Virus record (IMG/VR): IMGVR_UViG_3300049830_000314
Strand: one strand, 5' to 3'
Source: a virus
Lineage: Duplodnaviria; Heunggongvirae; Uroviricota; Caudoviricetes
DNA length: 64,000 bases
Below are positions 19,714 through 21,342 of the stretch, in pieces. Each line of letters starts with the position of its first letter. Positions within the stretch are counted from its first letter, which is position 1. The notes under the pieces were generated by a model that saw nothing but the letters and a program-made list of their open reading frames with translations, searched no databases and was not told the origin of the DNA. A program made the position numbers and the translations under genes.

Positions 19714-19998
19714 TTAATATATCTCTTGATGAATTGCTTGAGGAATTTCTATGATATGAGCCGCAGTTACACAAACAGACAATTCTTCATAAAAAGATTC
19801 GCCTTTTGATTTCTGCAACAACACTTCTCTCATCTCGATAGACAAGTGTTTGATAACAAAGACAAGAGCGCGACGAGCGAGTATTCGATTCCGAAGTTCT
19901 ATGATGTATTTCTTTCTCATATTAATACTATCACCAGAACTTCGGAAAAACGGAAGCTCACACCCGAGTATAAGAAAACTTTTTATTCCATGAATCAA
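19714..19998 (-). CDS. hypothetical protein
   Basis: 94-aa ORF. Confidence 0.35.
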   Translation of the reverse strand: MIHGIKSFLILGCELPFFRSSGDSINMRKKYIIELRNRILARRALVFVIKHLSIEMREVLLQKSKGESFYEELSVCVTAAHIIEIPQAIHQEIY

Positions 19999-20824
19999 GT
20001 TTAACTAAATCGAATTTAGACGGAGATGCTAACAAATTACCACCATCAACGAATAAACGAAATGCATCGTCTCTAGTGATTTTAGAAGTAGTCTTGTTAT
20101 CTATTTTTGGCCCCCAGCCAAGGCGCAATAAACAATTGAACATAGCGGCCGGCAAATAATCAGCATCTATGTAATGCTTCAAAAGAAAGGAATCGTCACC
20201 ATCTCGCTTAGACATCTTCTTGCCATTCGCTCCGTGAATCAATCCCACATGAGCATATTTCAAATCATAAGAGGGATTGATAAGCGTTTTAAGTGTGTGT
20301 TGCAAAGCTGTGTTGTTTGTATGGTCTACACCGCGAATAATAGAGTTCACGCCCAAATCCAAATCATCAACTATCGTGGTAAGATTGTAAAGTGGCATAT
20401 AACCTGCACGAGCTATCACCATAGTTTTTAAGTAGTTCCAGTTATTGTCGCTTATTGGTACATCTCCTAGCACCCTATCGTTCCACGATGGTAAGCGCAC
20501 ATCGTCAGACAGATTCATACGCACCGATGAATCAACGTCCATTATGGCGTGTCCATCTGCAATCAGTAAATCAATAGAGGCTCGATATAAGTCCAATCTA
20601 TCGCTTTGTCGGTATACTGCGTCCCAGTCTAAGCCGAGCCAGTCCATACCGCGCTTAATATCATCTACATAGATATCATTTGAGCGAACTGTGTCTGTGT
20701 CATCAATGCGAAGAATGAAGGTGCCGCCGTCAATACGGGCAGCCAGCCAATTAAAGAGTGCTGTTCTCGCTCCACCTAAATGTAAAAATCCCGTTGGGGA
20801 TGGGGCAAATCTTGTATGTGTCAT
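19958..20824 (-). CDS. gluQ: glutamyl-tRNA synthetase catalytic-domain-only protein (GluQRS/YadB-like); probable start at MTHTRFAPSPTG
   Basis: RFAPSPTGFLHLGGARTALFNWL (HIGH region of GluRS/GlnRS) and KMSKRDG (KMSKS). About 288 aa with no anticodon-binding domain. The longer track ORF (to 20866) would overlap the adjacent tRNA. Confidence 0.75.
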   Translation of the reverse strand: MTHTRFAPSPTGFLHLGGARTALFNWLAARIDGGTFILRIDDTDTVRSNDIYVDDIKRGMDWLGLDWDAVYRQSDRLDLYRASIDLLIADGHAIMDVDSSVRMNLSDDVRLPSWNDRVLGDVPISDNNWNYLKTMVIARAGYMPLYNLTTIVDDLDLGVNSIIRGVDHTNNTALQHTLKTLINPSYDLKYAHVGLIHGANGKKMSKRDGDDSFLLKHYIDADYLPAAMFNCLLRLGWGPKIDNKTTSKITRDDAFRLFVDGGNLLASPSKFDLVKLDSWNKKFSYTRV

Positions 20825-20838
20825 AATAAATCTCTTTT

Positions 20839-20913
20839 TGGTAGCTCGTATGGGAATCGAACCCATCTTTGAAGATTGAGAATCTTCCGTCCTAGCCGCT
20901 AGACGAACGAGCC
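20839..20913 (-). tRNA. tRNA-Glu (CUC)
   Basis: D-arm GTCTAGCGGCTAGGAC closely matches bacterial tRNA-Glu; anticodon stem GAAGA/TCTTC with loop TTCTCAA; T-arm ATGGG-TTCGATT-CCCAT; CCA encoded. Confidence 0.7.
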
Positions 20914-20923
20914 GTGTTCAAGA

Positions 20924-20991
20924 AATACATGACGGGATTCGAACCCGCGCCGCCCTCCAACGAGGGCGTTCTACCGCTAAACTACATGCAC
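20924..20991 (-). tRNA. aberrant tRNA-like gene: Pro-like UGG region but only a 6-nt anticodon loop, no encoded CCA
   Basis: Acceptor GTGCATG/CATGTAT (2 G-U), D-arm GTTT-AGCGGTA-GAAC, stem GCCCT/AGGGC with loop CGTTGG, T-arm GCGGG-TTCGAAT-CCCGT. Possibly a pseudogene. Confidence 0.35.
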
Positions 20992-21085
20992 TCCGCTTGA
21001 CACTCACTTGAACACCCGCGTTGTGTTGTCGTGGCTCACCTAGTTGCAACTAAATTAAGCAGGTCAAATTGTCAATATTAAAATT

Positions 21086-21163
21086 TGGTACCAACGGCGG
21101 GATTCGAACCCGTATTATTTTTGTTGAAAGCAAAAGTTCCTAGTCCATTTAGAAGACGCTGGC
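21086..21163 (-). tRNA. tRNA with anticodon UUC (Glu-type)
   Basis: Acceptor GCCAGCG/CGTTGGT, anticodon stem TTTTG/CAAAA with loop CTTTCAA, T-loop TTCGAAT, A73-CCA. Confidence 0.6.
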
Positions 21164-21181
21164 ATAAGTTTCTTTAAATGT

Positions 21182-21256
21182 TGGTAGGGCGACGGATACT
21201 CGAAATCCGCTCTTATCCTTGAAAGGGATAAATCCTAACCGCTAGACGACCGCCCC
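21182..21256 (-). tRNA. tRNA with anticodon UUC (Glu-type) and a Glu/Asp-like D-arm
   Basis: D-arm GTCTAGCGGTTAGGAT, anticodon stem TTATCC/GGATAA with loop CTTTCAA, T-arm CGGAT-TTCGAGT-ATCCG, CCA. Confidence 0.6.
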
Positions 21257-21264
21257 GTACATTT

Positions 21265-21342
21265 TGGTAGCGACGACGGGATTCGAACCCGCAGAATCTC
21301 CGACTCTGAGAAAGTGGTATGTTACCGTTACACCACGCCGCC
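21265..21342 (-). tRNA. tRNA, anticodon not resolved by eye
   Basis: GGCGGCG/CGTCGCT acceptor, D-arm GTGT-AACGGTAAC-ATAC, T-arm GCGGG-TTCGAAT-CCCGT, A73-CCA. The anticodon arm is irregular. Confidence 0.5.

What the first reader, a model, noticed from the sequence alone, without database searches (positions are those of the whole stretch)
19958..21342. Catalytic-domain-only GluRS (GluQRS-like) abutting a cluster of Glu-anticodon tRNAs
The 288-aa protein has the GluRS HIGH (HLGG) and KMSKR motifs but no anticodon-binding domain, as in YadB/GluQRS. GluQRS glutamylates queuosine on tRNA-Asp rather than charging tRNA-Glu. Its start is only about 15 nt from a tRNA with a classic Glu D-arm and a CUC anticodon. 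Two more UUC-anticodon tRNAs with different bodies, one aberrant tRNA with a 6-nt anticodon loop, and one unassigned tRNA follow, all driven by a consensus TTGACA-17-GATAAT promoter. This is a second instance of the pattern seen with the LeuRS core: a minimal class I synthetase core placed next to cognate-anticodon tRNAs.
Basis: partly seen in the sequence, partly recalled or inferred. Interest (0 to 1): 0.7.

Follow-up and report, generated by a model that had tools for sequence, protein, structure and literature searches.

The report
Phage minimal GluRS with tRNA-Glu array
A probable giant-phage genome carries a stripped-down glutamyl-tRNA synthetase (catalytic half only) transcribed together with four of its own glutamate tRNAs; this enzyme-plus-tRNA module recurs in many huge-phage contigs and looks like a self-contained, anticodon-independent glutamate-charging kit rather than the tRNA-modifying enzyme GluQRS.

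Summary
ORF 19958-20824 (-) encodes a 288-aa GluRS catalytic domain with HLGG and KMSKR and no anticodon-binding domain. Its start lies 14 nt after the last of five tRNA-like genes (20839-21342). Four carry Glu anticodons (CUC, UUC, UUC, CUC); one has a collapsed anticodon loop. A TTGACA-17-GATAAT promoter lies upstream.

The GluQRS reading is not supported. By HMM score, sequence, predicted fold and tree, the protein sits with bacterial GluRS. It also lacks the zinc-binding subdomain.

It belongs to a large unnamed clade of 280-330-aa GluRS with an RIDDTD signature, a GWGPxxDDK insert and a basic C-terminal tail. The clade occurs on IMG/VR contigs of up to 607 kb. Same-strand tRNA-Glu arrays (UUC plus CUC) sit just upstream in many lineages. 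No anticodon-binding domain was found near any of 46 loci.

Most likely it is an active, anticodon-blind GluRS that charges the co-transcribed phage tRNA-Glu. Charging was not tested.

The G1·U72/A73 acceptor end shared by the tRNAs is common in cellular tRNA-Glu, so it is not a special identity mark. The "LeuRS core" cited as a parallel is a ValRS-like core with no cognate tRNA nearby.

Verdict: a new variant of a known kind, of moderate interest.

The parts
21460..21488 (-). sigma-70-type promoter TTGACA-17-GATAAT upstream of the tRNA array
   Evidence: An 11/12 match, the best in the region. It is conserved, with the flanking sequence, in L211 and L002. Promoter use was not tested.
21369..21417 (-). 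leader hairpin (GAGAGAGCGC ... GCGCCTCTCTC) between the promoter and the first tRNA
   Evidence: Both stem arms are invariant and the loop is variable across the window, L211 and L002. Coordinates. Folding energy alone is not significant (z = -1.5). Function unknown.
21265..21342 (-). tRNA-Glu(CUC), 78 nt, non-classical D-arm, 8-nt variable region, G1.U72, A73, encoded CCA
   Evidence: ARAGORN. Rfam tRNA 45 bits. The orthologue in L002 has a clean anticodon stem.
21182..21256 (-). tRNA-Glu(UUC), 75 nt, classical tRNA-Glu D-arm (UCGUCUAGCGGUUAGGAU), short variable loop, G1.U72, A73, CCA
   Evidence: The near-identical orthologue in L211 has compensatory acceptor-stem changes.
21086..21163 (-). 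tRNA-Glu(UUC), 78 nt, a different body (UCUUCUAAAUGGACUAGGAA D-arm), G1.U72, A73, CCA
   Evidence: Orthologues are present in L002 and L211.
20922..20992 (-). aberrant tRNA-like element: normal acceptor, D and T arms, anticodon stem closed by a 4-6 nt loop, U73, no CCA; probably a decaying tRNA copy
   Evidence: ARAGORN gives 'tRNA-???(tt)'. Rfam tRNA scores 48.7 bits with 4 nt in place of the 7-nt loop. It is not conserved in L211 or L002, where a different degenerate tRNA-like sequence or an ORF occupies the position.
20839..20913 (-). tRNA-Glu(CUC), 75 nt, classical tRNA-Glu D-arm, 4-nt variable loop, G1.U72, A73, CCA; its 3' end lies 14 nt before the GluRS start codon
   Evidence: (57.8 bits). 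Conserved at the same position in L211.
20832..20837 (-). Shine-Dalgarno-like AAAGAG, 7 nt upstream of the ATG
   Evidence: Read directly from the sequence.
19958..20824 (-). 288-aa GluRS catalytic domain only (Rossmann fold, remnant of the acceptor-binding insertion and stem-contact fold); no zinc-binding subdomain and no anticodon-binding domain
   Evidence: Family and sequence matches. AlphaFold model with pLDDT 93.3. Fold matches to bacterial GluRS. Family of more than 100 clusters, 280-330 aa long.
19886..19948 (-). strong hairpin directly after the GluRS stop codon (12-bp perfect stem), overlapping the start of the next small ORF; no U-run
   Evidence: Fold of -35.9 kcal/mol, z = -4.0, 0 of 200 shuffles as stable. 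The spurious miRNA-model hits reflect this hairpin. Whether it belongs to the module is uncertain.

Best explanation
The locus is a self-contained glutamate-charging module of a probable huge phage. One promoter drives a polycistronic transcript that carries four tRNA-Glu genes (two CUC, two UUC, three different bodies), one decayed tRNA copy, and the mRNA of a minimal GluRS.

The enzyme is a bacterial-type GluRS reduced to its N-terminal half: the Rossmann catalytic fold, a remnant of the acceptor-binding insertion, and the stem-contact fold that faces the D-arm. It has lost the zinc-binding subdomain and the whole anticodon-binding domain. In their place it has a short basic C-terminal tail.

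I infer that it activates glutamate and esterifies it to the 3' end of tRNA-Glu. Recognition would rest only on the acceptor arm and D-arm, so the anticodon would not matter. That would let it charge both the C34 and U34 phage isoacceptors, whatever the state of U34 modification and whatever changes the anticodon loop carries. Canonical GluRS reads these features through its anticodon-binding domain.

Shown here: the gene and tRNA anatomy; the domain content; conservation of the catalytic and glutamate-binding residues; placement with GluRS rather than GluQRS; recurrence of the enzyme-tRNA-Glu linkage; absence of a nearby anticodon-binding domain.

Inferred: co-transcription, catalytic activity, tRNA-Glu as the substrate, anticodon independence, and any benefit during infection.
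For: Active-site conservation: 36 columns are invariant across 33 family members at 42-68% identity. They include H15/G17 (HIGH), K206 and R164 with near-invariant R5 and the rest of the KMSKR loop (K202, K203, S205, R207), Y146, D153-D154, R164-G165, and D167-H168. Both arginines that bind the substrate carboxylate in GluRS (by my knowledge of the T. thermophilus structures) are kept.

The Glu41-to-Asp change is the state found in GlnRS ('RFDDTN'), so it is compatible with catalysis.

Structure: the model is confident (pLDDT 93). It overlays bacterial GluRS at TM 0.85-0.89, including the naturally pZBD-deleted Methylacidiphilum enzyme 8jpv.

Linkage: tRNA-Glu arrays lie directly upstream on the same strand in L211 (88% identity), L002 (69%), L005/L011 (49%), L007 (47%), L016, L020, L022 and L028. 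Glu is enriched among nearby tRNAs. None of 13 full-length GluRS loci on large IMG/VR (putative phage) contigs has any tRNA within 4 kb.

No other partner: no other conserved neighbour gene, no conserved small partner ORF, and no anticodon-binding domain within +-4 kb of 46 loci, with a 36/36 positive control.

Literature:
- A C-truncated E. coli GluRS remains specific for tRNA-Glu (Dubois 2009, as described in PMC2777447).
- H. pylori GluRS2 selects its tRNA by the acceptor stem alone (PMC2777447).
- GluRS lacking the zinc-binding subdomain occur as the native enzyme of bacteria (PMC4381286).
- E. coli GluRS identity includes U34, U35, C36 and A37 plus the augmented D-helix (PMC9976931).

Two of the four tRNAs have the classical tRNA-Glu D-arm and a short variable loop.
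Against: - No biochemical data exist for any member of this clade.
- The engineered C-truncated E. coli enzyme is, as far as I recall, much less efficient than the full enzyme, so a natural version needs compensation that I cannot demonstrate.
- Only about 22% of non-redundant related loci have tRNA-Glu within 1 kb.
- Two of the four tRNAs depart from the E. coli identity set, with a longer variable region and a different D-arm.
- The position after RG in RGxDH has lost the acidic residue of canonical GluRS, as it has in GluQRS. The consequence is unknown.
- In the 88% relative L211 the gene carries a frameshift, which is either an assembly error or decay.
- Bootstrap support for monophyly of the truncated clade is only 60% in a simple NJ analysis.
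- The phage origin of the window is inferred. No hallmark gene lies in the 64 kb.
Confidence: 0.62

Rival explanations
1. It is a GluQRS-like tRNA-modifying enzyme. It would activate glutamate without tRNA and transfer it to a hypermodified anticodon base, such as queuosine in tRNA-Asp or another base in the adjacent tRNAs, rather than to the 3' end.
For: It has the same overall architecture: catalytic domain only, about 290 aa. GluQRS models do match at 83-155 bits. The residue after RG is non-acidic, as in GluQRS 'RGADL'.
Against: - All GluQRS models score far below their cut-offs of 250-453 bits and below the GluRS model. Across the 33 members the best E-value for gltX_bact (1.8e-85) beats every GluQRS model (best 9.4e-54).
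- YadB is a weak PDB hit (1.8e-16 against 2e-50 for GluRS).
- YadB is only the 42nd to 44th fold match (TM 0.69-0.72).
- GluQRS forms a separate branch with 200/200 bootstrap support.
- There is no CxC...Yx3C zinc motif, and the protein has a single Cys.
- The associated tRNAs are Glu, not Asp. Only one Asp tRNA lies within 4 kb across all loci.
- The dksA-gluQ context of true GluQRS is absent.
Confidence: 0.07
2. It is one half of a split GluRS. The catalytic half would work with an anticodon-binding domain supplied in trans, either encoded elsewhere in the phage genome or borrowed from the host.
For: The title of Dubois 2009 (cited) states that a C-truncated E. coli GluRS is stimulated by its free distal domain. 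Only +-4 kb, or 64 kb for the window, of genomes that may exceed 300 kb could be examined.
Against: No anticodon-binding domain is found in the 64-kb window or in 46 related loci, while the same HMM finds it in 36/36 full-length controls. There is no conserved neighbouring ORF. More than 100 sequence clusters keep the same stop position and a conserved basic tail, which points to a stable stand-alone protein.
Confidence: 0.1
3. The pair makes Glu-tRNA for a non-ribosomal use, for example as a glutamyl donor for DNA, protein or small-molecule modification. Alternatively it glutamylates a non-tRNA acceptor such as the anticodon-less tRNA-like element.
For: A phage enzyme that uses aminoacyl-tRNA to hypermodify DNA is known: Mom uses Gly-tRNA (PMC13219725). 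The array contains a tRNA-like element that cannot decode. A nucleoside 2-deoxyribosyltransferase-like gene lies 1.1 kb upstream and is syntenic in relatives.
Against: No aminoacyl-tRNA-using enzyme family (GNAT/Fem, LanB-like or L/F-transferase) was found near the gene, and no neighbour is conserved across the family. The four tRNAs have intact 7-nt anticodon loops with both Glu anticodons, as expected for decoding. Glu codons make up 6.7% of the window's codons, and 29% of them are GAG. The aberrant element is not conserved.
Confidence: 0.06
4. It is a catalytically dead remnant that only binds tRNA-Glu, acting as a chaperone, decoy or regulator, or it is a gene on its way to loss.
For: It lacks two domains of the parent enzyme. 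It falls below the NCBIfam cut-off. The copy in L211 is frameshifted.
Against: The catalytic motifs and substrate-binding residues are invariant or nearly invariant over a family that has diverged to 42% identity. That pattern indicates selection on catalysis. The fold is predicted with high confidence.
Confidence: 0.05

Closest known systems
Bacterial glutamyl-tRNA synthetase (GltX), especially the naturally pZBD-deleted forms (group V of PMC4381286; e.g. Methylacidiphilum fumariolicum GluRS, PDB 8jpv)
   Same: Class I Rossmann catalytic domain with HIGH and KMSKS and the glutamate-binding arginines. These are the best HMM, sequence and fold matches. The zinc-binding subdomain is deleted in the same way, and the alignment to 8jpv is nearly gap-free.
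   Different: The whole C-terminal anticodon-binding domain (PF19269, about 150 aa) is missing and is replaced by a 12-18-residue basic tail. The clade has signatures of its own: RIDDT[DN], RGxDH with a non-acidic x, and a GWGPxxDDK insert. It is encoded on phage-like contigs next to tRNA-Glu arrays.
GluQRS / YadB (tRNA glutamyl-Q34 synthetase)
   Same: A stand-alone paralogue of the GluRS catalytic domain, about 290-310 aa, with no anticodon-binding domain.
   Different: It is a separate lineage with weaker sequence and fold similarity. E. coli GluQRS keeps a zinc-binding subdomain, acts on tRNA-Asp, and sits next to dksA in the two bacterial genomes examined here (Salmonella, Acinetobacter). 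None of this applies to the window's protein.
Engineered C-truncated E. coli GluRS (Dubois et al. 2009, Biochemistry 48:6012; described in PMC2777447)
   Same: GluRS cut at the catalytic / anticodon-binding boundary. It still discriminates tRNA-Glu from tRNA-Gln, which shows that the N-terminal half can carry tRNA-Glu identity.
   Different: It is a laboratory construct that keeps the zinc-binding subdomain. The window's protein is a natural, widespread and further reduced version with a clade-specific tail.
Helicobacter pylori GluRS2
   Same: It chooses its tRNA through the acceptor stem alone, and the anticodon is irrelevant (PMC2777447). That is the recognition mode proposed here.
   Different: GluRS2 keeps an anticodon-binding domain and is specific for tRNA-Gln (U1-A72). 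The tRNAs here have Glu anticodons with G1.U72 or G2.U71.
aaRS and tRNA genes of huge phages (Al-Shayeb et al. 2020, PMC7162821), and phage aaRS co-localised with suppressor tRNAs in 'code change' operons (PMC12636597)
   Same: Phage-encoded synthetases and tRNAs proposed to charge phage tRNA variants. Co-location of an aaRS with its tRNA has been reported.
   Different: Neither of the two papers, in the passages I searched, mentions a synthetase that lacks its anticodon-binding domain or a sense-codon Glu module. The full-length GluRS loci on large IMG/VR (putative phage) contigs sampled here have no adjacent tRNAs.
Mixed tRNA-protein operons such as E. coli thrU-tyrU-glyT-thrT-tufB (from my own knowledge, not tested here)
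   Same: tRNA genes co-transcribed with a downstream translation-protein gene and released by processing.
   Different: In that operon the tRNAs are not the substrates of the encoded protein in an amino-acid-specific sense.

Membership tests
GluQRS (YadB, tRNA glutamyl-Q34 synthetase) | Scores above the curated cut-off of a GluQRS equivalog model | tested here: not met
   The best GluQRS model, NF004315, scores 154.6 bits against a cut-off of 250. TIGR03838 scores 151.8 against 276.7. The GluQRS models match all 33 family members less well than gltX_bact by best E-value (9.4e-54 against 1.8e-85).
GluQRS (YadB, tRNA glutamyl-Q34 synthetase) | Groups with GluQRS in phylogeny and is closest to GluQRS in structure | tested here: not met
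   The two GluQRS sequences form their own branch (200/200 bootstraps), and the query lies in the truncated-GluRS clade. Fold search puts 4a91 and 1nzj at ranks 42-44 with TM 0.69-0.72. GluRS structures give 0.85-0.89.
GluQRS (YadB, tRNA glutamyl-Q34 synthetase) | Zinc-binding subdomain with a CxCx(11-28)Yx3C motif (46 of 61 GluQRS in PMC4381286) | tested here: not met
   Query residues 103-114 replace about 48 residues of E. coli GluRS. The protein has one Cys in total, outside this region.
GluQRS (YadB, tRNA glutamyl-Q34 synthetase) | Catalytic-domain-only architecture | tested here: met
   PF00749 is the only domain, the protein is 288 aa, and the alignment ends at the GluRS domain boundary.
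GluQRS (YadB, tRNA glutamyl-Q34 synthetase) | Glutamylates queuosine-34 of tRNA-Asp; activates Glu without tRNA | not testable with these tools
   Context gives no support. The adjacent tRNAs are Glu, there is no tRNA-Asp in the window, and no queuosine genes were seen among the ORFs scanned.
Bacterial GluRS (GltX, TIGR00464) | Class I catalytic domain with HIGH and KMSKS and conserved Glu-binding residues | tested here: met
   HLGG and KMSKR are present. R5, Y146, R164, D167 and H168 are conserved across the family, and E41 is replaced by Asp.
Bacterial GluRS (GltX, TIGR00464) | C-terminal anticodon-binding domain (PF19269) | tested here: not met
   Absent from the ORF, from the window and from +-4 kb of 46 related loci.
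Bacterial GluRS (GltX, TIGR00464) | Scores above the curated equivalog cut-off | tested here: not met
   242.5 bits against a cut-off of 289.95. The match covers model positions up to 315 of 470, so the shortfall comes from the missing domains.
Bacterial GluRS (GltX, TIGR00464) | Forms Glu-tRNA-Glu | not testable with these tools
   Inferred from residue conservation and from the recurrent linkage to tRNA-Glu genes.
Truncated phage GluRS clade (unnamed; defined here) | 280-330 aa; RIDDT[DN]; RGxDH with non-acidic x; GWGPxxDDK insert; basic tail after the FDxxKL helix | tested here: met
   The query has RIDDTD, RGVDH, GWGPKIDNK and the tail DSWNKKFSYTRV. Thirty-four of 43 short representatives carry the Asp, against 16 of 107 longer ones.

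The most novel reading that the evidence does not exclude
The truncated enzyme and its tRNA array form an anticodon-blind, defence-proof charging system. Having shed the anticodon-binding domain, the phage GluRS could keep charging phage tRNA-Glu whose anticodon loops are free to vary, for example C34 instead of modified U34 or altered positions 32, 37 and 38. Such tRNAs could escape host anticodon nucleases or tRNA-modifying toxins. The enzyme would also bypass host control or poisoning of GltX. If so, it would be the first natural synthetase of the Glx family shown to work with no anticodon reading at all. It would also be a ready-made scaffold for reassigning codons to glutamate-type tRNAs.
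Probability: 0.25. Interest if true: 0.75.

Novelty: new variant of a known kind. Interest (0 to 1): 0.52.

Why it matters
If the enzyme is active, it is a natural, widespread GluRS made of the catalytic half alone. That is the form long proposed as the ancestor of GluRS before anticodon-binding domains were added (PMC3927822, PMC2777447). Until now it was known only as a laboratory truncation or as the functionally diverged GluQRS.

It would make three questions directly testable:
- How much tRNA-Glu identity resides in the acceptor arm and D-arm.
- Why huge phages carry their own synthetases alongside redundant isoacceptor arrays.
- Whether this redundancy is tied to tRNA-targeting host immunity (PMC10264068, PMC11555353).

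A GluRS that ignores the anticodon would also be useful for genetic-code engineering. No curated family covers the clade: NCBIfam has no model above cut-off and the PHROGs matches are to full-length, unannotated profiles. NCBI records name its members 'hypothetical protein' or 'glutamate--tRNA ligase', so it goes unnoticed in annotation.

Tried and rejected
1. Close relatives in GenBank phages. Megablast of 19000-22500 found nothing. tblastn found nothing above 36% identity. A single-protein scan of IMG/VR found nothing; the alignment-based scan worked.

2. G1·U72 plus A73 as a special identity mark. All four window tRNA-Glu share it, and 31 of 33 phage tRNA-Glu next to family members have G·U at 1:72 or 2:71. 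I rejected it after sampling 121 cellular tRNA-Glu with the same D-arm from 120 genome loci in many phyla. Of these, 76 have G1·U72, 23 have G2·U71, 85 have A73 and 47 have CUC. The feature is ordinary and host-like.

3. A conserved small partner protein that could replace the anticodon-binding domain. The ORFs between the tRNAs and the GluRS gene in L002, L003 and L005 are unrelated to each other and to the window.

4. Any conserved neighbour gene. Clustering 1461 ORFs from 45 loci gave only the GluRS itself and its antisense shadows.

5. A split gene with the anticodon-binding domain nearby: none found.

6. The 'SeC(UCA)' tRNA inside the L002 array as a Glu-type suppressor. On inspection its loop reads CUUUCAA, so it is a UUC tRNA-Glu called out of register.

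7. The leader hairpin as a significant structure. Its stem is conserved but its energy z-score is only -1.5, so I list it only as noticed.

8. Phage hallmark genes in the window: none found by PHROGs in 20 proteins.

9. Miscellaneous Rfam hits (miRNA, CRISPR-DR and sRNA models) are below their gathering scores and spurious.

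
Full report
**What is at the coordinates**

The minus strand between 21488 and 19886 carries the following, in order:
- a sigma-70-type promoter, TTGACA-17-GATAAT, at 21488-21460. It matches 11 of 12 positions and is the best site in the region;
- a leader of about 115 nt with a hairpin whose stem is conserved;
- five tRNA-like genes;
- a 288-codon ORF that starts 14 nt after the last tRNA.

ARAGORN and the Rfam tRNA model (43-58 bits against a gathering score of 29) agree on all five tRNA-like genes:

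| Coordinates | Call | Notes |
|---|---|---|
| 21182-21256 | tRNA-Glu(UUC) | |
| 21086-21163 | tRNA-Glu(UUC) | |
| 20922-20992 | aberrant tRNA-like | anticodon stem closed by 4-6 nt, U73, no CCA |
| 20839-20913 | tRNA-Glu(CUC) | |

The mechanical ORF (19958-20866) starts inside the last tRNA. Homologues all begin M-x-x-TR[FI]APSP, so the real start is the ATG at 20824. An AAAGAG lies 7 nt upstream of it.

**What the protein is**

- **Domains.** Pfam finds only the GluRS/GlnRS catalytic domain (PF00749, 1.7e-59).
- **HMM ranking.** NCBIfam ranks the bacterial GluRS model first, at 242 bits covering model positions up to 315 of 470. This is below the 290-bit cut-off because a third of the model has no counterpart. 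The GluQRS models reach at most 155 bits against cut-offs of 250 or more. Across the 33 aligned family members the best E-value is likewise far better for gltX_bact (1.8e-85) than for any GluQRS model (9.4e-54).
- **Solved structures.** The best matches are bacterial GluRS (E. coli-type 8i9i, 2e-50). E. coli YadB scores 1.8e-16.
- **Two losses.** The alignment shows that query residues 103-114 stand in for about 48 residues of E. coli GluRS. That segment is the putative zinc-binding subdomain (pZBD). The protein then stops at the boundary between the catalytic half and the anticodon-binding domain.
- **Predicted structure.** An AlphaFold model built on 33 homologues is confident (pLDDT 93.3, pTM 0.91). 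It superposes on bacterial GluRS at TM 0.85-0.89 with 34-37% identity. The matches include the naturally pZBD-deleted Methylacidiphilum enzyme 8jpv. The two GluQRS structures rank 42nd to 44th, with TM 0.69-0.72 and 25% identity.
- **Tree.** In a neighbour-joining tree of 106 catalytic domains the GluQRS sequences form their own branch (200/200 bootstraps). The query falls in a clade made only of truncated proteins, with 120/200 support for monophyly of all truncated sequences. Two short sequences that keep RIEDTD look like an independent truncation.

The protein is a GluRS derivative, not a GluQRS.

**A large unnamed family**

The 5.8-billion-protein search returned more than 100 clusters of 277-332 aa at 42-88% identity, ahead of the first full-length GluRS at 41%. 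The exhaustive representative search gave 43 short proteins (<345 aa) among the best 150, 34 of them with the clade's Asp signature.

The members share features that canonical GluRS lacks:
- an invariant RIDDT[DN], where canonical GluRS has RIEDTD. Asp is the state found in GlnRS, 'RFDDTN';
- RGxDH with a non-acidic x;
- a GWGPxxDDK(S/T)T insert;
- a basic C-terminal tail ([DN][RK]K[YF]KA[RK]...) of 12-18 residues after the FDxxKL helix. Full-length enzymes continue from there into about 170 more residues.

HIGH is invariant and the KMSKS loop is invariant or nearly so. R5, Y146, R164, D167 and H168 are also invariant or nearly so. That pattern is expected of an enzyme under selection for catalysis.

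An alignment-based scan of IMG/VR found 180 related stretches. The truncated ones lie on viral contigs of up to 607 kb. No member is in the INPHARED GenBank phage set above 36% identity. A few are in Rhodobacteraceae assemblies, in phage-like contexts.

The window itself shows many tRNAs, minimised translation proteins, an RNA ligase, a Thg1-like enzyme, many ORFans, a near-uniform gene orientation and a few PHROG matches. It has no hallmark structural gene. A huge-phage origin is probable but not proven.

**The linkage to tRNA-Glu is real and old**

Same-strand arrays of two to four tRNA-Glu, always mixing UUC and CUC, sit directly upstream of the truncated gene in:
- the 88% relative L211;
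- the 69% relative L002;
- the 49% relative on a 376-kb contig, L005/L011;
- the 47% relative in an Epibacterium assembly, L007;
- L016, L020, L022 and L028.

Among 32 non-redundant truncated loci from IMG/VR, 7 have tRNA-Glu within 1 kb, and 19 of the 35 tRNAs within 1 kb are Glu. None of 13 full-length GluRS loci on large IMG/VR (putative phage) contigs has any tRNA within 4 kb.

Nothing else is conserved around the gene:
- no small partner ORF;
- no neighbour family;
- no anticodon-binding domain within +-4 kb of 46 loci, although the same HMM finds it in 36 of 36 full-length controls;
- no anticodon-binding domain in the 64-kb window.

The promoter and the leader hairpin stems are conserved in L211 and L002. 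The L014/L016/L020 lineage has its own TTGACA...TATAGT-like site at a similar distance.

**The tRNAs**

Two of the four (21182-21256 and 20839-20913) have the classical bacterial tRNA-Glu D-arm (UCGUCUAGCGGYUAGGAY) and a 3-4-nt variable loop. These correspond to the 'augmented D-helix' and missing residue 47 that are major identity elements for E. coli GluRS (PMC9976931). The other two have different D-arms and longer variable regions. Each body type has orthologues in L002 or L211.

All four share G1·U72, A73 and an encoded CCA. I considered whether this could be a private identity mark for an enzyme that cannot read the anticodon. A sample of 121 cellular tRNA-Glu from 120 genome loci in many phyla shows it is ordinary: 76 have G1·U72, 23 have G2·U71, 85 have A73 and 47 have CUC. 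The phage tRNAs look like normal non-gammaproteobacterial tRNA-Glu.

The fifth element is probably a decaying copy. At the same place L211 has a different degenerate tRNA-like sequence plus a 65-codon ORF, and L002 has an ORF.

**How it most likely works**

The promoter, the same-strand tandem tRNAs, the 14-nt gap and the Shine-Dalgarno-like AAAGAG suggest one transcript. The tRNAs would be cut out of it, and its 3' part would be the synthetase mRNA. This is inferred and was not shown.

The retained domains are those that, in the T. thermophilus GluRS-tRNA complex, face the acceptor arm and D-arm. The boundary at residue 322 is used in PMC3927822; the contact assignment is from my own knowledge of that structure.

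Three published results make an active stand-alone N-terminal half plausible:
- A C-truncated E. coli GluRS still prefers tRNA-Glu over tRNA-Gln (Dubois 2009, as summarised in PMC2777447).
- H. pylori GluRS2 selects its tRNA by the acceptor stem alone (same paper).
- pZBD-deleted GluRS are the working enzymes of several bacteria (PMC4381286).

An enzyme without the anticodon-binding domain cannot read U34, U35, C36 or A37, which are strong determinants for E. coli GluRS. It should therefore accept C34 and U34 isoacceptors alike, whatever the state of U34 modification. That fits the constant pairing of CUC and UUC genes in the arrays. Glutamate is the second most used amino acid in the window's ORFs (6.7% of codons, 29% of them GAG).

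I put 0.62 on 'active GluRS that charges the co-encoded tRNA-Glu'. Anticodon independence is a likely corollary. A link to evasion of tRNA-targeting defences (PMC10264068, PMC11555353) is an attractive but untested extension.

**Rivals**

| Rival | Weight | Main reason |
|---|---|---|
| GluQRS-like modification | 0.07 | Contradicted by every comparative test above and by the tRNA context |
| Split enzyme with a distant anticodon-binding domain | 0.10 | Cannot be excluded without complete genomes |
| Non-ribosomal use of Glu-tRNA, cf. Mom (PMC13219725) | 0.06 | No supporting neighbour gene |
| Dead remnant | 0.05 | Contradicted by active-site conservation |

The 'LeuRS core' is ORF 12049-13386. 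It is a 445-aa ValRS-like protein lacking the CP1 editing domain (ValRS 350 bits, LeuRS 96 bits). It lies 3 kb and three ORFs away from the Leu tRNAs, and the window has no tRNA-Val. So there is no second instance of 'core next to cognate tRNAs'. There is, however, a theme of minimised translation proteins in this genome: the ValRS-like core, a 219-aa RF1-like protein and this GluRS.

**Novelty and verdict**

Phage aaRS and tRNAs are known (PMC7162821), and co-located phage aaRS-tRNA pairs have been reported for stop-codon recoding (PMC12636597). In four full-text searches on GluRS/aaRS I found no description of a natural GluRS lacking its anticodon-binding domain other than GluQRS. I also found no description of this clade or of its linkage to tRNA-Glu arrays. 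No curated family covers it.

I rate it a new variant of a known kind, with interest about 0.5. Comparative evidence for the family and the linkage is solid. Function is unproven.

Noticed in passing
window 6564-6811, 16453-16870, 20839-21342, 45511-45775, 53225-53388, 56249-58026: The tRNA genes are sorted by amino acid into same-strand arrays whose copies share an anticodon or amino acid but have different bodies: Phe GAA x3, Leu x5, Glu x4, Tyr GUA x3, His x2 and Pro x4. Between the window and its 88% relative, tRNA bodies have turned over faster than the enzyme.
   Followed up: partly
window 12049-13386 (-): A 445-aa class I synthetase core that is ValRS-like (350 bits) rather than LeuRS-like (96 bits). 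The CP1 editing domain is missing, since the profile match jumps from position 244 to 458. Only a stub of the anticodon-binding domain remains, and there is no tRNA-Val in the window.
   Followed up: partly
window 10237-10896 (-) and 10932-11771 (-): A 219-aa RF1-like protein that keeps the end of the PCRF domain and the GGQ RF-1 domain but lacks the N-terminal domains. Next to it is a protein with two Clp_N repeats.
   Followed up: no
window 48788-49855 (-) and 53225-53388: A Thg1-like tRNA-His guanylyltransferase homologue (PF04446, 3.7e-29) lies 3.4 kb from two tRNA-His genes.
   Followed up: no
window 34774-34848 (-): An isolated tRNA called 'SeC' with a UCA anticodon in a 7-nt loop and a weak acceptor stem. 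It could be an opal suppressor or a false call. TGA is used as a stop in 12 of 48 ORFs, including the GluRS gene.
   Followed up: no
window 57721-58106 (-): The ARAGORN tmRNA call overlaps two tRNA-Pro genes (57867-58026) and is probably spurious.
   Followed up: no
window 19886-19948 (-): A strong hairpin lies right after the GluRS stop codon: a 12-bp perfect stem, -35.9 kcal/mol, z = -4.0. It buries the start codon of the next 68-codon ORF (19714-19920) and has no U-run. It explains the spurious miRNA-model hits.
   Followed up: partly
window 21369-21417 (-); L211 and L002 leaders: A leader hairpin lies between the promoter and the first tRNA. Its stem arms (GAGAGAGCGC / GCGCCTCTCTC) are invariant in three phages while the loop varies. 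The L014/L016/L020 lineage has an analogous hairpin of different sequence.
   Followed up: partly
window 5962-6516, 15623-16303, 30995-31396, 56335-56886 (all -): Cys-rich ORFs of 130-230 aa sit beside or between tRNA arrays. Only 15623-16303 shows a weak, sub-threshold HNH match. They may be homing-endonuclease-like genes.
   Followed up: no
L211 3843-4000: In the 88% relative the GluRS gene has a 1-nt deletion just after the HLGG codons, so the called protein (P0002) starts at an internal Met. This is either an assembly error or gene decay.
   Followed up: no
L014, L016, L019, L020, L022, L027: A tRNA-Arg(UCU) recurs shortly downstream of the truncated GluRS gene in several lineages.
   Followed up: no
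window 22493-25185 (-); L002; L211: A nucleoside 2-deoxyribosyltransferase-like gene and a 698-aa protein (phrog_33734, unknown function) lie upstream of the tRNA array. Both are syntenic in L002 and L211. L002 also has an RNA ligase and an IF1/eIF-1A-like gene there.
   Followed up: no
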